Origin: Alphaproteobacteria bacterium UBA3760
GTDB lineage: Bacteria > Pseudomonadota > Alphaproteobacteria > Rs-D84
Reading direction: 5' to 3'
Length of the DNA: 61,531 bases
Assembly: GCA_002371155.1 (NCBI GenBank)
Contig: DFGC01000012.1
Span: 1-61,531, forward strand
A model generated the notes under the pieces. The model was not told the DNA's origin. It saw only the letters and a list, made by a program, of their open reading frames with translations, and searched no databases. Within the stretch, counting starts at the first letter, position 1, and each line of letters opens with the position of its first letter. The position numbers and the translations under genes were made by a program. This document shows, piece after piece, positions 24,306 through 60,005 of the stretch.

Positions 24306-24512
24306 ATGGATTGGGTAAATTTAATTTTTTTATATTTTAAATATATATTGGCCATAATCATAATAATAACAATTATTCTGGCACCGGCGTGGTTGGCGCG
24401 CCAAAACAAGAAAAATAAAACTGCAACCGCATGGATTCGCATATACAGTTGGCTGTTCGGGTGGACTGGGATTGGATGGTTGGTTGCATTATATATGGCG
24501 GTCCGGAAATAA
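24306..24512 (+). CDS. Superinfection immunity protein family, small membrane protein
   Basis: 68 aa; P..LA..K...I...WLFGWTGIGWLVAL pattern of the Imm_superinfect family. Confidence 0.75.
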   Translation: MDWVNLIFLYFKYILAIIIIITIILAPAWLARQNKKNKTATAWIRIYSWLFGWTGIGWLVALYMAVRK

Positions 24513-24540
24513 AGAACAAAAACAACACGTATGGAACACC

Positions 24541-24860
24541 GACCACGACAAGAATCCACCACATCCCAAGAAATTAAATTTTATGAGATTATTGGATGTG
24601 GTCGATGTTCCGCAGTGTACAAATGCTACATAAGGGACATCGACCATGACAAGAATCCACCACATCCCAAGAAATTAAATTTTATGAGATTATTGGAAGC
24701 GATTGTTGGTTCGCAGTGTAGTTGACCTACATAAGAACCGACAATCACGACAAGAATCCACCGCATCCCAAGAAATTAAATTTTATGAGATTATTGGATG
24801 TGGTCGATGTTCCGCGGTGTACAAATGCTACATAAGGGACATCGACCACGACAAGAATCC
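24541..24860. repeat. Tandem array of 101-bp units with RPE-like hairpins
   Basis: gacaagaatcc at 24547, 24648, 24749, 24850; 50-bp constant part plus 51-bp palindromic part. Confidence 0.9.
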
Positions 24861-24879
24861 ATAAAATTTAATTTATTTC

Positions 24880-24908
24880 TTGACTTTGGTGGATTTTTGT
24901 TCTAAATT
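24880..24908 (+). promoter_or_regulatory. Sigma70-type promoter of rpmB-tRNA-Leu
   Basis: TTGACT-17 nt-TAAATT. Confidence 0.55.
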
Positions 24909-24936: not shown

Positions 24937-25305
24937 ATGCCACGTGTATGTGATGTTACTGGTAAAAAAACAACTGTTGGTCACAATGTGTCCCATTCGG
25001 AACGCAAGACTAAACGCACATTTTTACCGAATTTACAAAAATTAAAATTTCACAGTGATATATTGGGTCGCGACTTTTTGTTGCGTATTTCGACGGCGGG
25101 TTTGCGCACATTAACCAAACACGGCGGTCTGGACGGATACGTAATGGCGAAACCAATTTCACGTTTAACCGACGAAATGGCGGCAATTAAACGCGCCATT
25201 GAAAAAAAGAATGGCACGGCTGCGACACCGGCGAAAAAACCTGTGCGCAAGGTGAATCGTTCGGCCCGTTTGGTTAAAAAGGTTTCCGCGAAAACCGCAA
25301 AATAA
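24937..25305 (+). CDS. rpmB: 50S ribosomal protein L28 with basic C-terminal extension
   Basis: MPRVCDVTGK...VSHS..KTKRTFLPNLQ. Confidence 0.97.
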   Translation: MPRVCDVTGKKTTVGHNVSHSERKTKRTFLPNLQKLKFHSDILGRDFLLRISTAGLRTLTKHGGLDGYVMAKPISRLTDEMAAIKRAIEKKNGTAATPAKKPVRKVNRSARLVKKVSAKTAK

Positions 25306-25321: not shown

Positions 25322-25406
25322 GGCTCTGTGGCGGAACTGGTAGACGCGCTTGACTCAAAATCAAGTTCAGCAATGAGTATCGGTTCGATTCCGATCAGAG
25401 CCACCA
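25322..25406 (+). tRNA. tRNA-Leu(CAA)
   Basis: GGCTCTGTGGCGGAACTGGTAGACGC..CTCAAAA..long variable arm..GGTTCGATTCC..GAGCCACCA. Confidence 0.95.
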
Positions 25407-40154: not shown

Positions 40155-40309
40155 CAAGAAAATAATTTATGTGGGGGAATCGCAACAAGTCCCCACACAA
40201 ATTTTCAAGAAAATAAATTATGTGCGGGAATTGGAAGCGATTGGCGGTTCGCAGTGTAGTTGACCTACATAAGAACCGGCAATCGCGACAAGTCCCCACA
40301 GAATTTATT
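40155..40309. repeat. RPE-like palindromic element between rpoA and rplQ
   Basis: Nearly identical to unit 2 of the 24.6 kb array (gcagtgtagttgacctacataagaaccg). Confidence 0.85.
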
Positions 40310-41344
40310 TTATTTGTAGGGGTCTTCGTATTTCTTGGCCAACTCCGCAATATTTTCTGGTGGCCAACCCGGGACTTCCATACCCAATCCCAATCCCATG
40401 GCCTCTAATTGGATTTTGATTTCATTCAAAGATTTACGGCCAAAGTTTGGTGTTTTCAACATATCGGCCTCGGTCTTTTGAACCAATTCACCCAACCAAT
40501 TGATTTTATCGTTTTTCAAGCAATTATTTGCACGAACCGACAATTCCAATTCATCAACATGCTTCAACAATTTCGGATCAAATGGCAAAGCATCTTTGAC
40601 CTTGTCATCTTCCGCCGGCGCACTGATTTGTGCCGGGTCATCAAAATTGATAAATACAGATAATTGGTCCGTCAAAATGCGCGCTGCAAACGCGATTGCA
40701 TCTTCTGGGGACACAGAACCATTTGTTTTCACCGTCAATTCCAATTTATCATAATCGGTTGATTGACCGACACGCGTTTGTGAAACCGCCGAAGAAACAT
40801 TCAAAATCGGCGAAAAAATAGAATCAACCGGAATAACACCCAATGGCAAATCAACATCATGGGCATTTGCCGCGACATAACCACGTCCCGAATCCAATGT
40901 GATTTCCATATCAAATGTTGCATCTTTATCCAAAGTGCAAATTTCGGCATCTTTATTCATAACATCAACACCCGCAGATGTTTCAATCATACCCGCCGTC
41001 ACAACAACCGGACCACGCGCCTTGATTGTTGCCTTGTGCTGACCCTCGGCATTTGCCTTGAAATAAACACCCTTTAAATTCAATATAATATCAGAAATAT
41101 CTTCACGAACACCGGGCAAAGTGCTGAATTCATGTTGCACACCATCAATTTTTACATATACCGGCGCACACCCCTGTAATGAAGACAACAGAACACGACG
41201 CAACGCCGTTCCCAATGTCAAACCAAAACCCTTTTCCAGCGGTTCAACAATTAATGTTCCAATATTAGGATTTTTTTCATCAACTTTGATGTCCATTCTT
41301 TTTGGCTTAATCAAAGTCATCCAATTTTTTTCAATCATATTCAC
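40310..41344 (-). CDS. rpoA: RNA polymerase alpha subunit
   Basis: [42 protein letters not shown]. Confidence 0.99.
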
Positions 41345-59214: not shown

Positions 59215-60005
59215 ATCGTCATCCCGCGTGCCGGGGTGGGTATTCCGCCCCATCGGGGAGGGGAATATGGCTGCTTTTCCAACCCCACCCTTGCGGCGGG
59301 GTCGCAGAGCGCAAACATTTGTTTAGCGCGATGCGGGGGCGGGTATTCCTCCCCCGGGCGTCCCCTTCTTTCCCAAAGAAGGGGTGGCAGCCGCAGGCTG
59401 ACGGGGTAATTTGACACAATCCCATACACACCGGATGCCCGAACCTTTCACAACTACCTCCCCCCGCTAGCGCGGGGTACTCCTTCTTTCATAAAGAAGG
59501 AGAATATCCAAGTTCGACCATTTCATATTCCCCGTCTTTTACCGCCCCCGCGGAAAAGAAGGGGTGGATTGTGAGCAAAGCGAACAAGACGGGGCAGTTC
59601 AGTATAATCACACCCTCCCCGTCGCTGCGCGCCACCCCTCCACAGGAGGGGAATATGACTGCTTTTCCAACCCCGCCCTTGCCCGGGCCCCACGCAAATT
59701 CTTTGCGTGGGTGGATTCGGCGGGGTCGGCAAGACAATGTGAAACACTTGTCGAGCCGGGGGCGGGTATTCCTCCCCCGGGCGTCCCCTTCTTTCCCAAA
59801 GAAGGGGTGGCAGCCGCAGGCTGACGGGGTAATTTGACACAATCCCATACACACCGGATGCCCGAGCCTTTCACCCTCCCCGTCGCTGCGCGCCACCCCT
59901 CCTGTGGAGGGGAATATTCCGCCCCAATCGGGCCCCGCCGCGGCGCAATTTGCGACGGGTGGGTGGTGCCTGGGGAGGGGGACCAACGAAGTTGGTGGAG
60001 GGGGT
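59215..60005. repeat. GC-rich mosaic of REP-like palindromes including a 108-bp direct repeat (59335..59442 and 59758..59865)
   Basis: Recurrent ccttctttcccaaagaagg, caccctccccgtcgctgcgcgccacccctc, ggaggggaatat. Confidence 0.85.

What the first reader, a model, noticed from the sequence alone, without database searches (positions are those of the whole stretch)
24541..24860. 101-bp repeat/hairpin array with fully covarying stems and a fixed loop
Seen: a 50-bp constant block alternates with 51-bp segments in A-B-A order. A stem tggtcgatgttcc/gggacatcgacca and B stem gcgattgttggttc/gaaccgacaatcac share little sequence but both pair and enclose GCAGTGTA-N7-TACATAA; period is exactly 101. Known: the loop resembles Rickettsia palindromic element RPE-1 (GCAGCGTAC..GTACGTGAG). 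Inference: a structure-selected RNA or ssDNA element that amplifies in tandem, with the loop as a likely protein recognition site. It lies directly after a superinfection-immunity-like gene.
Basis: partly seen in the sequence, partly recalled or inferred. Interest (0 to 1): 0.62.

Follow-up and report, generated by a model that had tools for sequence, protein, structure and literature searches.

The report
Replication-oriented gene-end hairpin repeat array
The 101-bp array is three tandem copies of a long foldback DNA repeat that, in tiny gut Alphaproteobacteria, sits where transcription terminators normally sit and always points the same way relative to DNA replication. Its fixed tip is shared by hairpin repeats across many small-genome Alphaproteobacteria, no transposase was found, and it matches no Rfam family or any paper I could search.

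Summary
Window 24531-24882 holds a remnant plus three head-to-tail units (A-B-A, period 101). The stems differ but pair, and the apex GCRGTGTA-N7-TACATAA is fixed.

The "constant block" is not a spacer. It is the junctions and one outer arm of a ~125-nt foldback element, and only the last unit has both outer arms.

The element is a dispersed family:
- 16 copies in this 864-kb genome (Candidatus Enterousia group).
- 0-24 copies in 21 of 25 genomes of the genus.
- The same orthologous sites are occupied across species, with compensatory stem changes.

Its 42-nt apex recurs in 53 of 401 sampled Alphaproteobacteria, at up to at least 93 copies per genome.

In 81 of 85 loci the element lies 0-10 nt after a stop codon, in the terminator slot. 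Its better-folding strand is always the C-rich (lagging) strand. The rpmB array breaks the gene rule but obeys the replication rule.

Strains carry zero, one or three units at this site, or arrays with other unit contents. I found no RAYT/Y1 transposase, no reverse-transcriptase link, and no Rfam, phage or plasmid match.

Best reading: a REP/ERIC-like selfish foldback repeat that is tolerated or used as a terminator, with replication-dependent persistence. It is a new variant of a known kind. RNA-seq could not be run.

The parts
24531..24557 (+). Truncated unit 0: only a 3' arm (atggaacaccgaccac), junction GACAAG and aatcc. It starts 19 nt after the stop of the Imm-like ORF.
   Evidence: Sequence. 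It resembles the 3' arm of unit A. Strain L284 has an equivalent remnant.
24558..24658 (+). Unit 1 (hairpin A). Linker accacatcc, 5' outer arm 24567-24590, junction ATTGGA, stem 24597-24611 / 24634-24647, apex 24612-24633, junction GACAAG + aatcc.
   Evidence: Covariance-model hit 24578-24670, 79 bits.
24659..24759 (+). Unit 2 (hairpin B). Same outer arm and junctions. Stem cgattgttggttc / gaaccgacaatca. Apex variant GTAGTTGACCTAC (24713-24734).
   Evidence: 74.7 bits. The B stem is nearly identical to the rpoA-site copy of genome G020 (L067) and related to window 40238-40285.
24760..24882 (+). Unit 3 (hairpin A, apex GCGGTGTA...). This is the only complete element: its 5' outer arm 24769-24792 pairs with the 3' outer arm 24856-24882.
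   Evidence: Fold -55.2 kcal/mol, z -7.7. 84.3 bits. The orthologous last unit is present in G018 and in L284 and L291.
24880..24908 (+). rpmB promoter TTGACT-17-TAAATT. Its TTG overlaps the end of the 3' outer arm.
   Evidence: The same promoter is conserved in 16 relatives and in the empty-site metagenome contigs.
24306..24512 (+). Small membrane ORF (68 aa), Pfam Imm_superinfect. It is a neighbour, not part of the element.
   Evidence: E 7.8e-8. The array occurs without it in G018 and L287.
24937..25305 (+). rpmB (ribosomal protein L28), the downstream neighbour. It is a lagging-strand gene on this contig.
   Evidence: Contig GC skew -0.195.
40206..40316 (+). Second, solitary copy of the family in the window. 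It lies antisense to rpoA, and its outer arm overlaps the rpoA stop codon (40310-40312). A hairpin-less partial unit precedes it at 40155-40205.
   Evidence: 78.7 bits. The site is occupied in all 15 species examined.

Best explanation
The feature is a tandem array (a remnant plus three units) of a non-coding, non-autonomous foldback repeat of about 125 nt.

The element is built as follows, from outside to inside:
- an A/T-rich outer stem;
- conserved purine-rich internal loops;
- a 13-14-bp stem of free sequence;
- a fixed apical module: C-G-N-A, then G.U-UGUA-S...S-UACA-U, then R-A-G.

Shown:
- It belongs to a dispersed family of the Candidatus Enterousia group. That family is a branch of a superfamily defined by the apical module and found in many small-genome Alphaproteobacteria.
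- Copies occupy the slot directly after a stop codon, where intrinsic terminators normally lie, and can replace the terminator.
- The strand that folds better is always the C-rich (lagging-strand-sequence) strand.
- Stems change while pairing is kept.
- Identical copies occur at different loci in one genome.
- At the rpmB site, strains carry zero, one or three units, or arrays with other unit contents.

Inferred:
- It is a selfish or semi-domesticated palindromic repeat of the REP/ERIC/MITE kind. It spreads and grows without a dedicated transposase, through replication-linked processes at single-stranded hairpins (template switching, slippage, unequal exchange between the ~50-bp shared blocks).
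- It survives only in the orientation that puts its weaker-folding strand on the lagging-strand template. This rests on the orientation-dependent instability of asymmetric palindromes, known from E. coli work that I recall rather than looked up.
- It is tolerated or used because the transcribed hairpin plus T-tract can serve as a terminator or 3'-end protector.
- In this window the array probably insulates the rpmB promoter from read-through out of eno and the small ORF.
- The fixed apex is probably bound by a conserved host factor. That factor is unidentified.
For: Family and structure:
- 16 own-genome copies.
- 21 of 25 genus genomes carry 1-24 copies.
- 137-copy alignment.
- Covariation is well above shuffled and slid controls.

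Orthologous retention with compensatory change: rpoA-rplQ (15 species, 21 of 38 pairs), rpsR-rplI, rpsM-rpsK and the efp 3' end.

Placement: in 81 of 85 resolvable loci the gene next to the element's 3' end points at it, and its stop codon lies 0-10 nt away or inside the outer stem.

Terminator slot. At one gene end:
- ten species have stop + A-tract + GC hairpin + T-tract;
- G006 has the element there instead;
- G014 has both;
- G000 has the element with an altered C-terminus.

Replication polarity:
- 9 of 9 own loci match the contig GC skew.
- 93 of 97 loci match by local skew, and 62 of 72 by GC3 skew.
- The three loci that break the gene rule sit beside lagging-strand genes and obey the skew rule. 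They are rpmB in G000 and G018, ClpB in G006 and G024, and one G025 copy.
- About 35% of G000 ORFs are on the lagging strand. Yet essentially none of about 90 elements follows such a gene in antisense orientation.

Strand asymmetry: the model strand folds better in 102 of 121 copies with RNA parameters and 114 of 121 with DNA parameters. It also does so in 20 of 24 distant-lineage loci.

Mobility and turnover:
- Identical copies at three loci in G021.
- Empty sites in L281, L282, L283, L285, L288 and L289.
- Filled sites with one unit (L284), C-C-C (L286), A-A-B (L287) and B'-C-A (G018).

Superfamily:
- The apex model hits 53 of 401 Alphaproteobacteria in 46 genera.
- Up to at least 93 copies per genome.
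- A shared extended core GAGAACCGG..GCG.A[hairpin]GAGCACCGGAAGCGCAG in several families.

No enzyme found: Y1_Tnp in 0 of 41 genomes. Reverse transcriptase is absent from high-copy genomes.

No match in Rfam, phages or plasmids.
Against: - Terminator or insulator activity is therefore unproven. The simple terminator scan flags nothing in the array.
- No target-site duplication or clean empty-versus-filled junction could be defined.
- No mobilising enzyme is known.
- The strand that folds best is antisense to the adjacent gene in most loci. That is awkward for a purely mRNA-level function.
- G.T versus A.C mismatches in the variable stems show no strand preference. The asymmetry therefore rests on the conserved loops.
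- Elements next to lagging-strand genes are under-represented: about 5% observed against about 35% expected. I cannot explain this.
- The orientation-survivorship idea rests on E. coli literature recalled from memory, not on a test here.
- Copies are related by descent, so counts across copies are not independent.
Confidence: 0.6

Rival explanations
1. The element is primarily a functional cis-acting RNA: a 3'-UTR element, an elaborated intrinsic terminator or a protein-binding hairpin. It is kept by RNA-level selection and inherited vertically. Its mobility is marginal, and the replication polarity is a by-product of most genes lying on the leading strand.
For: - Placement directly after stop codons in 81 of 85 loci.
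- It replaces a canonical terminator.
- A-tract and T-tract flanks.
- Long retention at orthologous sites in ribosomal-protein operons, with compensatory changes.
- The apical module is conserved across families with 29-59% GC.
- REPs within 15 nt of a stop codon are reported to stall ribosomes and lower translation (PMC12306157).
Against: - The mRNA-sense strand is the weaker folder in 102 of 121 copies. In that strand the conserved G.A loops become C.U/U.C.
- About 35% of ORFs are on the lagging strand, yet elements almost never follow them in the gene-relative orientation. The exceptions keep replication polarity, not gene polarity.
- The window's own array is antisense to the usual gene-relative orientation.
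- Copy number runs from 0 to 24 within one genus, and identical copies sit at several loci.
Confidence: 0.22
2. It is a REP/REPIN element mobilised by a RAYT (TnpA_REP), or a palindrome-associated remnant of an IS200/IS605 element moved by a Y1 HUH transposase on single-stranded DNA.
For: - Hairpin repeats downstream of genes.
- Tandem and clustered arrangement.
- Strict polarity relative to replication, as known for IS200/IS605 transposition.
- Some apices read C-GTAG-TGTAC, which recalls the GTAG tag of REPs.
Against: - Y1_Tnp (PF01797) is absent from all 41 genomes of the order, while the control genomes score.
- Across the class it is present in 5 of 20 module-positive and 3 of 17 module-negative genomes.
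- It is absent from the densest genome, G376, with at least 93 copies.
- The 'tag' position is variable (GCAG, GTAG, GAAG, GGAG).
- Here the conserved part is the apex. In REPs it is a terminal tag plus the stem.
Confidence: 0.04
3. It is a member of the Rickettsia palindromic element family (RPE-1).
For: - Similar size (100-150 nt) and palindromic shape, in an alphaproteobacterial host.
Against: - No RPE-1 sequence could be obtained, because the papers found give no consensus.
- RPEs are known for in-frame insertion inside genes. These copies are intergenic, and the 101-bp period is not a multiple of three.
- Published short RPE-4 and RPE-6 are CGTC-tagged ATTCCC-type hairpins (PMC3733652), which is a different sequence.
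- The genomes carrying the variant are unnamed, and their loci have 43-57% GC, unlike Rickettsia.
Confidence: 0.1
4. It is an rpmB-specific leader or L28 autoregulatory structure, or a CRISPR-like or integron attC-like array.
For: - It lies directly upstream of rpmB.
- It shows repeat-and-variable-segment periodicity.
- attC sites are also structure-conserved, sequence-variable hairpins at gene ends that are used as one strand.
Against: - It lies upstream of the rpmB promoter, not in the leader.
- It is absent from this site in 16 of 18 species and in six metagenome strains.
- The same element sits at many unrelated loci.
- The 'spacers' are palindromes that recur elsewhere (A occurs twice in the array, and B at the rpoA site of G020), so it is not CRISPR.
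- The conserved parts are apical, whereas attC conserves the basal R/L boxes. The neighbours are core housekeeping genes, not cassettes.
Confidence: 0.02

Closest known systems
REP / BIME / REPIN elements of gamma-proteobacteria, with their RAYT (TnpA_REP) transposases
   Same: - Short non-coding palindromic repeats found mostly just downstream of genes.
- Single, paired or clustered arrangement, with copy number varying between relatives.
- REPINs also form hairpins of about 100 nt.
- Proposed roles at mRNA 3' ends. REPs within 15 nt of a stop codon affect translation (PMC12306157).
   Different: - No RAYT in any genome of the order.
- The conserved part is the apex and the internal loops, not a GTAG tag plus stem.
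- The arms are not themselves REP palindromes.
- Arrays are head-to-tail, not alternating.
- Replication polarity is strict.
CGTC-tagged REPs of Alphaproteobacteria, including Rickettsia RPE-4/RPE-6 and Neisseria dRS3 (Di Nocera et al. 2013, PMC3733652)
   Same: - Palindromic repeats spread across alphaproteobacterial orders.
- Mostly downstream of coding regions.
- 'Apparently lack a dedicated transposase'.
- Dimers can fold into larger hairpins.
   Different: - Those are 8-9-bp stems of the ATTCCC type with 4-5-nt loops, a CGTC tag and a CCA tail.
- The present module (CGNA-GUGUAS..SUACAU-RAG) is a different sequence.
- It sits at the tip of a single long foldback.
ERIC / IRU elements of Enterobacteriaceae
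   Same: - Imperfect palindromes of about 125 nt in transcribed intergenic regions.
- Sequence conserved across many genera.
- No known transposase, and very variable copy number.
   Different: - ERIC is conserved along its whole length and occurs in both orientations.
- Here only the apex and junctions are conserved, the stems are free, and orientation is fixed relative to replication.
- (The ERIC properties are from my own knowledge.)
Rickettsia palindromic elements (RPE-1) and Brucella Bru-RS1/2
   Same: Alphaproteobacterial palindromic repeats of about 100-150 nt. Bru-RS is 103-105 bp (PMC2267715).
   Different: - Sequence relationship is untested.
- RPE-1 is famous for in-frame insertion into genes.
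- Bru-RS is an IS711 hot spot.
- Neither is described, as far as I could find, as stop-codon-adjacent and replication-oriented.
Integron attC sites
   Same: - Structure is conserved while sequence varies.
- They lie at the 3' end of genes, often overlapping the stop codon.
- One specific strand is the functional folded form.
   Different: - attC conserves the basal R/L boxes and extrahelical bases, needs IntI, and flanks mobile cassettes.
- Here the apex is conserved and the neighbours are core genes.
- IntI was not searched for.

Membership tests
REP/REPIN (RAYT-mobilised) | A RAYT / Y1 HUH transposase gene in the genome, usually flanked by REPs | tested here: not met
   PF01797 gives 0 of 41 genomes of the order, with positive controls scoring. 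There is no association across 37 genomes of the class.
REP/REPIN (RAYT-mobilised) | A conserved GTAG (or CGTC) tetranucleotide tag at one end of a short palindrome | tested here: not met
   The position before the apical stem reads GCAG, GTAG, GAAG or GGAG. There is no terminal CGTC + ATTCCC-type stem as described in PMC3733652.
REP-like repeats in the broad sense (repeated extragenic palindromes) | Multi-copy, non-coding, hairpin-forming, intergenic and mostly downstream of genes | tested here: met
MITE | Terminal inverted repeats plus a target-site duplication, and a related autonomous IS | tested here: inconclusive
   The outer arms act as inverted repeats. However, the outermost pairs are locus-specific and inverted rather than direct. 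No target-site duplication and no parent IS were found. Empty and filled alleles exist, but their junctions are not alignable.
IS200/IS605-derived palindrome-associated elements | Y1 transposase, sub-terminal hairpins at both ends, and strand-specific insertion 3' of a short target | tested here: not met
   No Y1 transposase. The element is one foldback, not two end hairpins. Only the replication polarity is shared.
Intrinsic (Rho-independent) terminator | A stable hairpin right after the gene, followed by a U-tract | tested here: inconclusive
   The position and the A/T-tract flanks fit, and the element replaces a canonical terminator in G006. On the other side, the hairpin is far longer than a normal terminator, the simple scan finds none, and no transcript data could be obtained.
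Rickettsia palindromic element RPE-1 | Sequence similarity to the RPE-1 consensus, and in-frame insertion in ORFs | not testable with these tools
The copies here are intergenic, with a period of 101.
Described RNA families (Rfam 15) | A match to a curated covariance model | tested here: not met
   No relevant match at E <= 10 in the window region, or at E <= 1 in seven distant loci.
CRISPR array | A constant repeat alternating with unique, non-palindromic spacers, plus cas genes | tested here: not met
   The variable segments are palindromes sharing a fixed apex. A occurs twice in the array, and B recurs at other loci. cas genes were not searched for.
Integron attC | R''/L''-L'/R' boxes (GTTRRRY core) at the base, an IntI integrase, and a cassette context | not tested
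   No GTTRRRY core is evident at the unit ends, and the neighbours are housekeeping genes.

The most novel reading that the evidence does not exclude
The roughly 42-nt apical module is an unrecognised strand-specific signal read by a conserved host factor at gene ends.
- The module is a C-G pair, a 5'-GNA/RA-3' purine loop, a G.U pair, UGUA/UACA, and a 5-nt loop. In many families it sits inside GAGAACCGG..GCG.A[..]GAGCACCGGAAGCGCAG.
- It occurs across many small-genome Alphaproteobacteria.
- The factor would read it on single-stranded DNA of the leading-strand template or nascent lagging strand, or on an antisense transcript.
- On this reading the foldback families are not mere selfish DNA. 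They would be the carriers of a shared replication-, transcription- or repair-linked function.
Probability: 0.25. Interest if true: 0.78.

Novelty: new variant of a known kind. Interest (0 to 1): 0.58.

Why it matters
Three points make it matter.

1. It shows how sub-megabase genomes that encode no detectable Y1 (RAYT-type) transposase still carry, gain and lose a structured repeat (other transposase families were not searched). This gives a natural system for studying transposase-independent spread and replication-orientation-dependent survival of palindromes.

2. The element takes the place of intrinsic terminators after core genes (rpoA, rpsR, efp, dnaN, yebC). It may therefore shape operon expression in an abundant but uncultured group of ruminant gut bacteria.

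3. Its apex is conserved across alphaproteobacterial families with 29-59% GC and matches no Rfam family. That points to an unidentified common binding partner.

Practical consequences:
- The arrays vary between strains and break short-read assemblies, so they are useful strain markers.
- They are a caution for annotation. Covarying stems here must not be read automatically as proof of an RNA gene.

Tried and rejected
- **RNA-seq or read evidence.** Transcription, 3' ends and strandedness could not be examined.
- **RNAalifold on a MAFFT alignment.** It failed to recover the stems because the variable arms were misaligned. I replaced it with a hand-set structure on an ungapped alignment.
- **G.T versus A.C counting to identify the folded strand.** It was not decisive in the variable stems. 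Comparing fold energies was informative instead.
- **Reverse-transcriptase (target-primed) origin of the 5'-truncated units.** Rejected, because RVT_1 is absent from G000, G004, G021 and G024, which have many copies.
- **RAYT / IS200-605.** Rejected.
- **XerCD/dif mimicry of the apex.** A dif-like site exists in the genome and shares only TTATGTA with the apex. I judged this to be chance.
- **ssoA CS-6 (TAGCGT) resemblance of the sense-strand loop.** The loop is variable across copies, and the resemblance comes from memory only. Dropped.
- **An own promoter for a model-strand sRNA.** No acceptable -35/-10 lies upstream of the copies (inspection).
- **Target-site duplication.** The outermost flanks are inverted, not direct.
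- **Literature search for the core sequence and for an RPE-1 consensus.** Nothing usable was found.
- **BLAST of the unit and of a distant core against phages and plasmids.** No relevant match.
Full report
**1. The observation**

Window 24536-24861 is a tandem repeat of period 101, with 3.2 copies (repeat finder).
- A stem: 24599-24611 / 24634-24646, and again in the third unit.
- B stem: 24699-24712 / 24735-24748, with one mismatch and one wobble.
- Each stem encloses GCAGTGTA-N7-TACATAA. The third unit reads GCGGTGTA.

Folding is far beyond shuffled controls: z = -7.7 for the last unit and -14.2 for the array.

The description needs one correction. The "50-bp constant block" is made of five pieces:
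- the 3' junction GACAAG;
- aatcc;
- a 9-nt linker;
- a 24-nt 5' outer arm;
- the 5' junction ATTGGA(AG).

The 3' partner of the outer arm (24856-24882) exists only after the last unit. The real element is therefore a foldback of about 125 nt, and units 1 and 2 are copies that lack a 3' outer arm. A truncated unit (24531-24557) precedes them.

**2. A dispersed family**

A search for the apex in the window's own 864-kb assembly found further copies on contigs C2, C4, C6, C7 and C15. Tandem pairs or triplets with 101-103-nt spacing lie on C6 and C15.

All copies share one architecture, from outside to inside:
- an A/T-rich outer stem;
- an internal loop, either ATTGGAAG/CGACAAG ("type 1", as here) or CAGATGCG/CAGCAGATG ("type 2", forming tandem G.A pairs);
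- a 9-14-bp stem of free sequence;
- the apex.

On an ungapped alignment of 12 copies:
- 76.8% of cells pair, against 57% in shuffles and 26-41% when partners are slid;
- 23 of 38 pairs show changes on both sides.

A covariance model (R1) gave these results:
- 16 copies in the genome;
- 1-24 copies in 21 of 25 genomes of the same genus;
- copies in one of 16 genomes from other families of the order.

An exact-motif scan of 185,579 species genomes returned only MAGs labelled Candidatus Enterousia, "Alphaproteobacteria bacterium" or the like (one labelled only "bacterium"), most of them titled as coming from ruminant and other herbivore guts. This independently supports the taxon given in earlier notes of this scan.

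**3. Where the copies sit**

I mapped flanking ORFs of 88 foreign loci onto the window's genome. In 81 of 85 resolvable cases the gene next to the element's 3' end (in model orientation) is on the opposite strand and ends 0-10 nt away.

Read in the direction of that gene, the pattern is:

stop codon - (a)aa - TTAAATCTAATGGCATATCTA ... apex ... TATCTATACCATTATCT - TTAATTTT

Often the element's own TAA is the stop codon.

The same orthologous sites are occupied across species:
- rpoA-rplQ, in all 15 species examined;
- rpsR-rplI;
- rpsM-rpsK;
- the 3' ends of efp, dnaN and yebC.

Their stems differ in a compensating way. At the rpoA site, 21 of 38 pairs show both-sided changes.

At the 3' end of one gene:
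- ten species have the classical stop + A-tract + GC hairpin + T-tract;
- G006 has the element in exactly that place;
- G014 has the element followed by the terminator;
- G000 has the element with the protein's last residues changed from PDRHE* to NEI*.

The element therefore occupies, and can replace, the terminator slot.

**4. Polarity follows replication, not transcription**

This genome has a strong GC skew of +/-0.15-0.2. In all nine own loci, the strand carrying the model orientation is the C-rich strand. The same holds in:
- 93 of 97 loci by local skew;
- 62 of 72 loci by third-codon-position skew.

Three independent loci break the "antisense to the adjacent gene" rule:
- the rpmB array in G000 and G018;
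- a ClpB-side copy in G006 and G024;
- one copy in G025.

All three lie beside lagging-strand genes and keep the replication polarity.

About 35% of ORFs in G000 are on the lagging strand. If placement simply followed any gene end, about a third of copies should have the opposite polarity. Essentially none does.

The two strands are not equivalent:
- The model strand folds better in 102 of 121 copies (mean 6.7 kcal/mol, RNA parameters) and in 114 of 121 with DNA parameters.
- The reason is that the conserved internal loops are purine-purine (AGAT/AGAT tandem G.A, GNA/RA) and the closing pair is G.T on that strand.
- On the other strand these become pyrimidine mismatches and A.C.

In the variable stems, G.T and A.C mismatches are about equally common.

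**5. The rpmB locus as a polymorphic site**

Sixteen other species of the genus have no element upstream of rpmB.

G018 has an array at the same place, but with different contents: a decayed B-like unit, then a unit with a third stem (C), then A.

Metagenome contigs sharing the first 24 nt of rpmB gave the following:
- six empty sites, with a DUF4301-type gene stop, then 3-16 nt, then the -35 box;
- one unit A in the same eno / small-ORF context as this window (L284);
- B-A identical to this window (L291);
- C-C-C (L286);
- A-A-B (L287);
- two B-like units (L290).

In L287 the upstream protein ends inside the element (AHLSPRN* instead of AHTE*).

So copy number and unit content change on short evolutionary scales. 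Homogeneous runs (A-A, C-C-C) point to duplication by slippage or unequal exchange across the ~50-bp shared block.

The window's linker ACCACATCC is the reverse complement of the junction and stem start of unit A (GGATGTGGT, pairs I16-I19). A short template switch would leave this kind of trace. This is an inference.

The Imm_superinfect-like ORF is real, but it is only a neighbour.

**6. Evidence for movement, and the missing enzyme**

G021 has identical full copies after three unrelated genes. G024 has identical copies at two loci.

Arrays elsewhere contain units that keep the apex and one arm but have lost the other arm. The lost arm is replaced by G-rich filler.

One copy (L075) has both G.A loops converted to Watson-Crick pairs, making it a "perfected" palindrome. 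This suggests that one arm can be copied from the other.

Enzyme and database searches were all negative:
- Y1_Tnp is absent from all 41 genomes of the order, with positive controls scoring.
- RVT_1 is patchy and absent from high-copy genomes.
- Nothing similar exists in the phage or plasmid collections.
- No Rfam family matches.

**7. The apex is much older than the family**

At class level, R1 picked up long hairpins with the same apex in other alphaproteobacterial families. One genome there has 21 copies.

A 42-nt model of the apex plus ten stem pairs (R2) hit 53 of 401 sampled Alphaproteobacteria, in 46 of 307 genera. Nearly all hits are genomes of 0.9-2.6 Mb.

Copy numbers reach:
- at least 93 in a 0.9-Mb genome;
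- 74 and 67 in two 2.5-Mb genomes;
- 38 and 35 in others.

Several families share a longer core, GAGAACCGG-N-GCG-N-A-[GYGTAS..STACRT]-GAGCACCGGAAGCGCAG. It is set in lineage-specific arms of up to about 160 nt.

The apical stem itself covaries: GTGTA/TACAT, GCGTA/TACGT and GTTTA/TAAAT.

In these distant lineages:
- the model strand again folds better, in 20 of 24 loci;
- the flanks are C-rich on that strand in 40 of 51 loci;
- most copies again abut the stop codon of an opposite-strand gene.

Y1 transposases do not track the module: they occur in 5 of 20 positive and 3 of 17 negative genomes, and are absent from the densest genomes. No Rfam family matches.

**8. Interpretation**

Shown: a repeated, structure-preserving foldback with a deeply conserved tip, terminator-slot placement, strict replication polarity, strain-level turnover, and no dedicated transposase detected.

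Inferred mechanism:
- The element propagates and forms arrays through replication-linked events at hairpins, namely template switching and slippage.
- It persists only in the orientation that puts its weaker-folding strand on the lagging-strand template. This matches the orientation-dependent deletion of asymmetric palindromes known from E. coli. That knowledge is from my memory and was not tested here.
- It is tolerated or exploited because the transcribed hairpin plus T-tract can end or protect transcripts.

In this window the array sits between the small ORF's stop and the rpmB promoter (TTGACT-17-TAAATT). In empty-site strains there is no room for any terminator. The array therefore plausibly insulates rpmB from upstream read-through.

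The main rival is a primarily RNA-level 3'-end element. It explains the placement but not the polarity or the strand asymmetry.

Covariation here cannot be taken as proof of an RNA, because arm-to-arm copying in DNA would produce the same pattern.

**9. Relation to what is known**

The closest kinds are:
- REP/BIME/REPIN;
- the transposase-less CGTC REPs of Alphaproteobacteria, together with the general finding that REPs lie downstream of genes (PMC3733652);
- ERIC;
- RPE and Bru-RS (PMC2267715).

REPs within 15 nt of a stop codon are reported to stall ribosomes (PMC12306157), which may also apply here.

The present family differs in four ways:
- the apex is conserved while the arms are free;
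- it has its own sequence;
- it forms head-to-tail arrays;
- it has strict replication polarity.

Other agents of this scan have described the same family in other genomes and reached similar conclusions. I re-derived the main claims here rather than relying on them.

**10. Unexplained**

- Why copies beside lagging-strand genes are so rare (about 5% against about 35% expected).
- What binds the apex.
- How a copy reaches a new site.
- The origin of the G-rich filler and of the conserved GCAAGGGG-like motif after many copies.

Noticed in passing
window 59472-59494 (also C7:62401 outside the window, and near the ends of contigs C9, C10, C16, C17 and C18): A GC-rich repeat (…ccccccgctggcGCGGGGTACTCCTTCTTTCATAAagaaggagaat…) recurs at or near many contig ends. 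It is probably a multi-copy element that breaks the assembly.
   Followed up: no
G000 contig C3, about 10038, minus strand (outside the window): A dif-like site, GCGCATAATGTATATTATGTAT. It is the best candidate for the chromosome dimer resolution site.
   Followed up: no
L041, L042, L045, L081, L090 (rpoA-rplQ spacers of related species): A small lysine-rich ORF of about 50-60 aa (e.g. MSEKTKKERFERGTRR...) is inserted between the hairpin element and rplQ in some species. A conserved structured leader (aatcccacggt...ggcagaaacaaaaaggag) precedes rplQ in all of them.
   Followed up: no
window 24937-25305: Ribosomal protein L28 is 122 aa here. The Pfam domain covers only residues 3-61, and the rest is a Lys/Ala-rich C-terminal tail that is conserved in the genus.
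   Followed up: no
L075:412-505 (G016): In one family copy both AGAT/AGAT loops have become Watson-Crick pairs, giving a perfected palindrome. This hints at arm-to-arm copying.
   Followed up: partly
L085, L110, L113, L116 (arrays in G019, G021): Arrays of half units. Each keeps the apex plus one arm, preceded by a small CCCC-N7-GGGG hairpin or G-run of variable length (…caagggggggg…). Some 3' arms come from a different subfamily than the residual 5' arm.
   Followed up: partly
G000 C6:63572-68266 (outside the window): Three tandem paralogues, about 70% identical, of a gene of about 530 aa. Only the last one carries the hairpin element, and its C-terminus is altered.
   Followed up: partly
10 of 25 genomes of the genus (e.g. 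G003:C2:167534-168076): RVT_1 reverse-transcriptase genes of 340-380 aa (retron or defence size). They are absent from the window's genome.
   Followed up: no
window 25322-25403: A tRNA gene just downstream of rpmB (Rfam tRNA, 61 bits).
   Followed up: no
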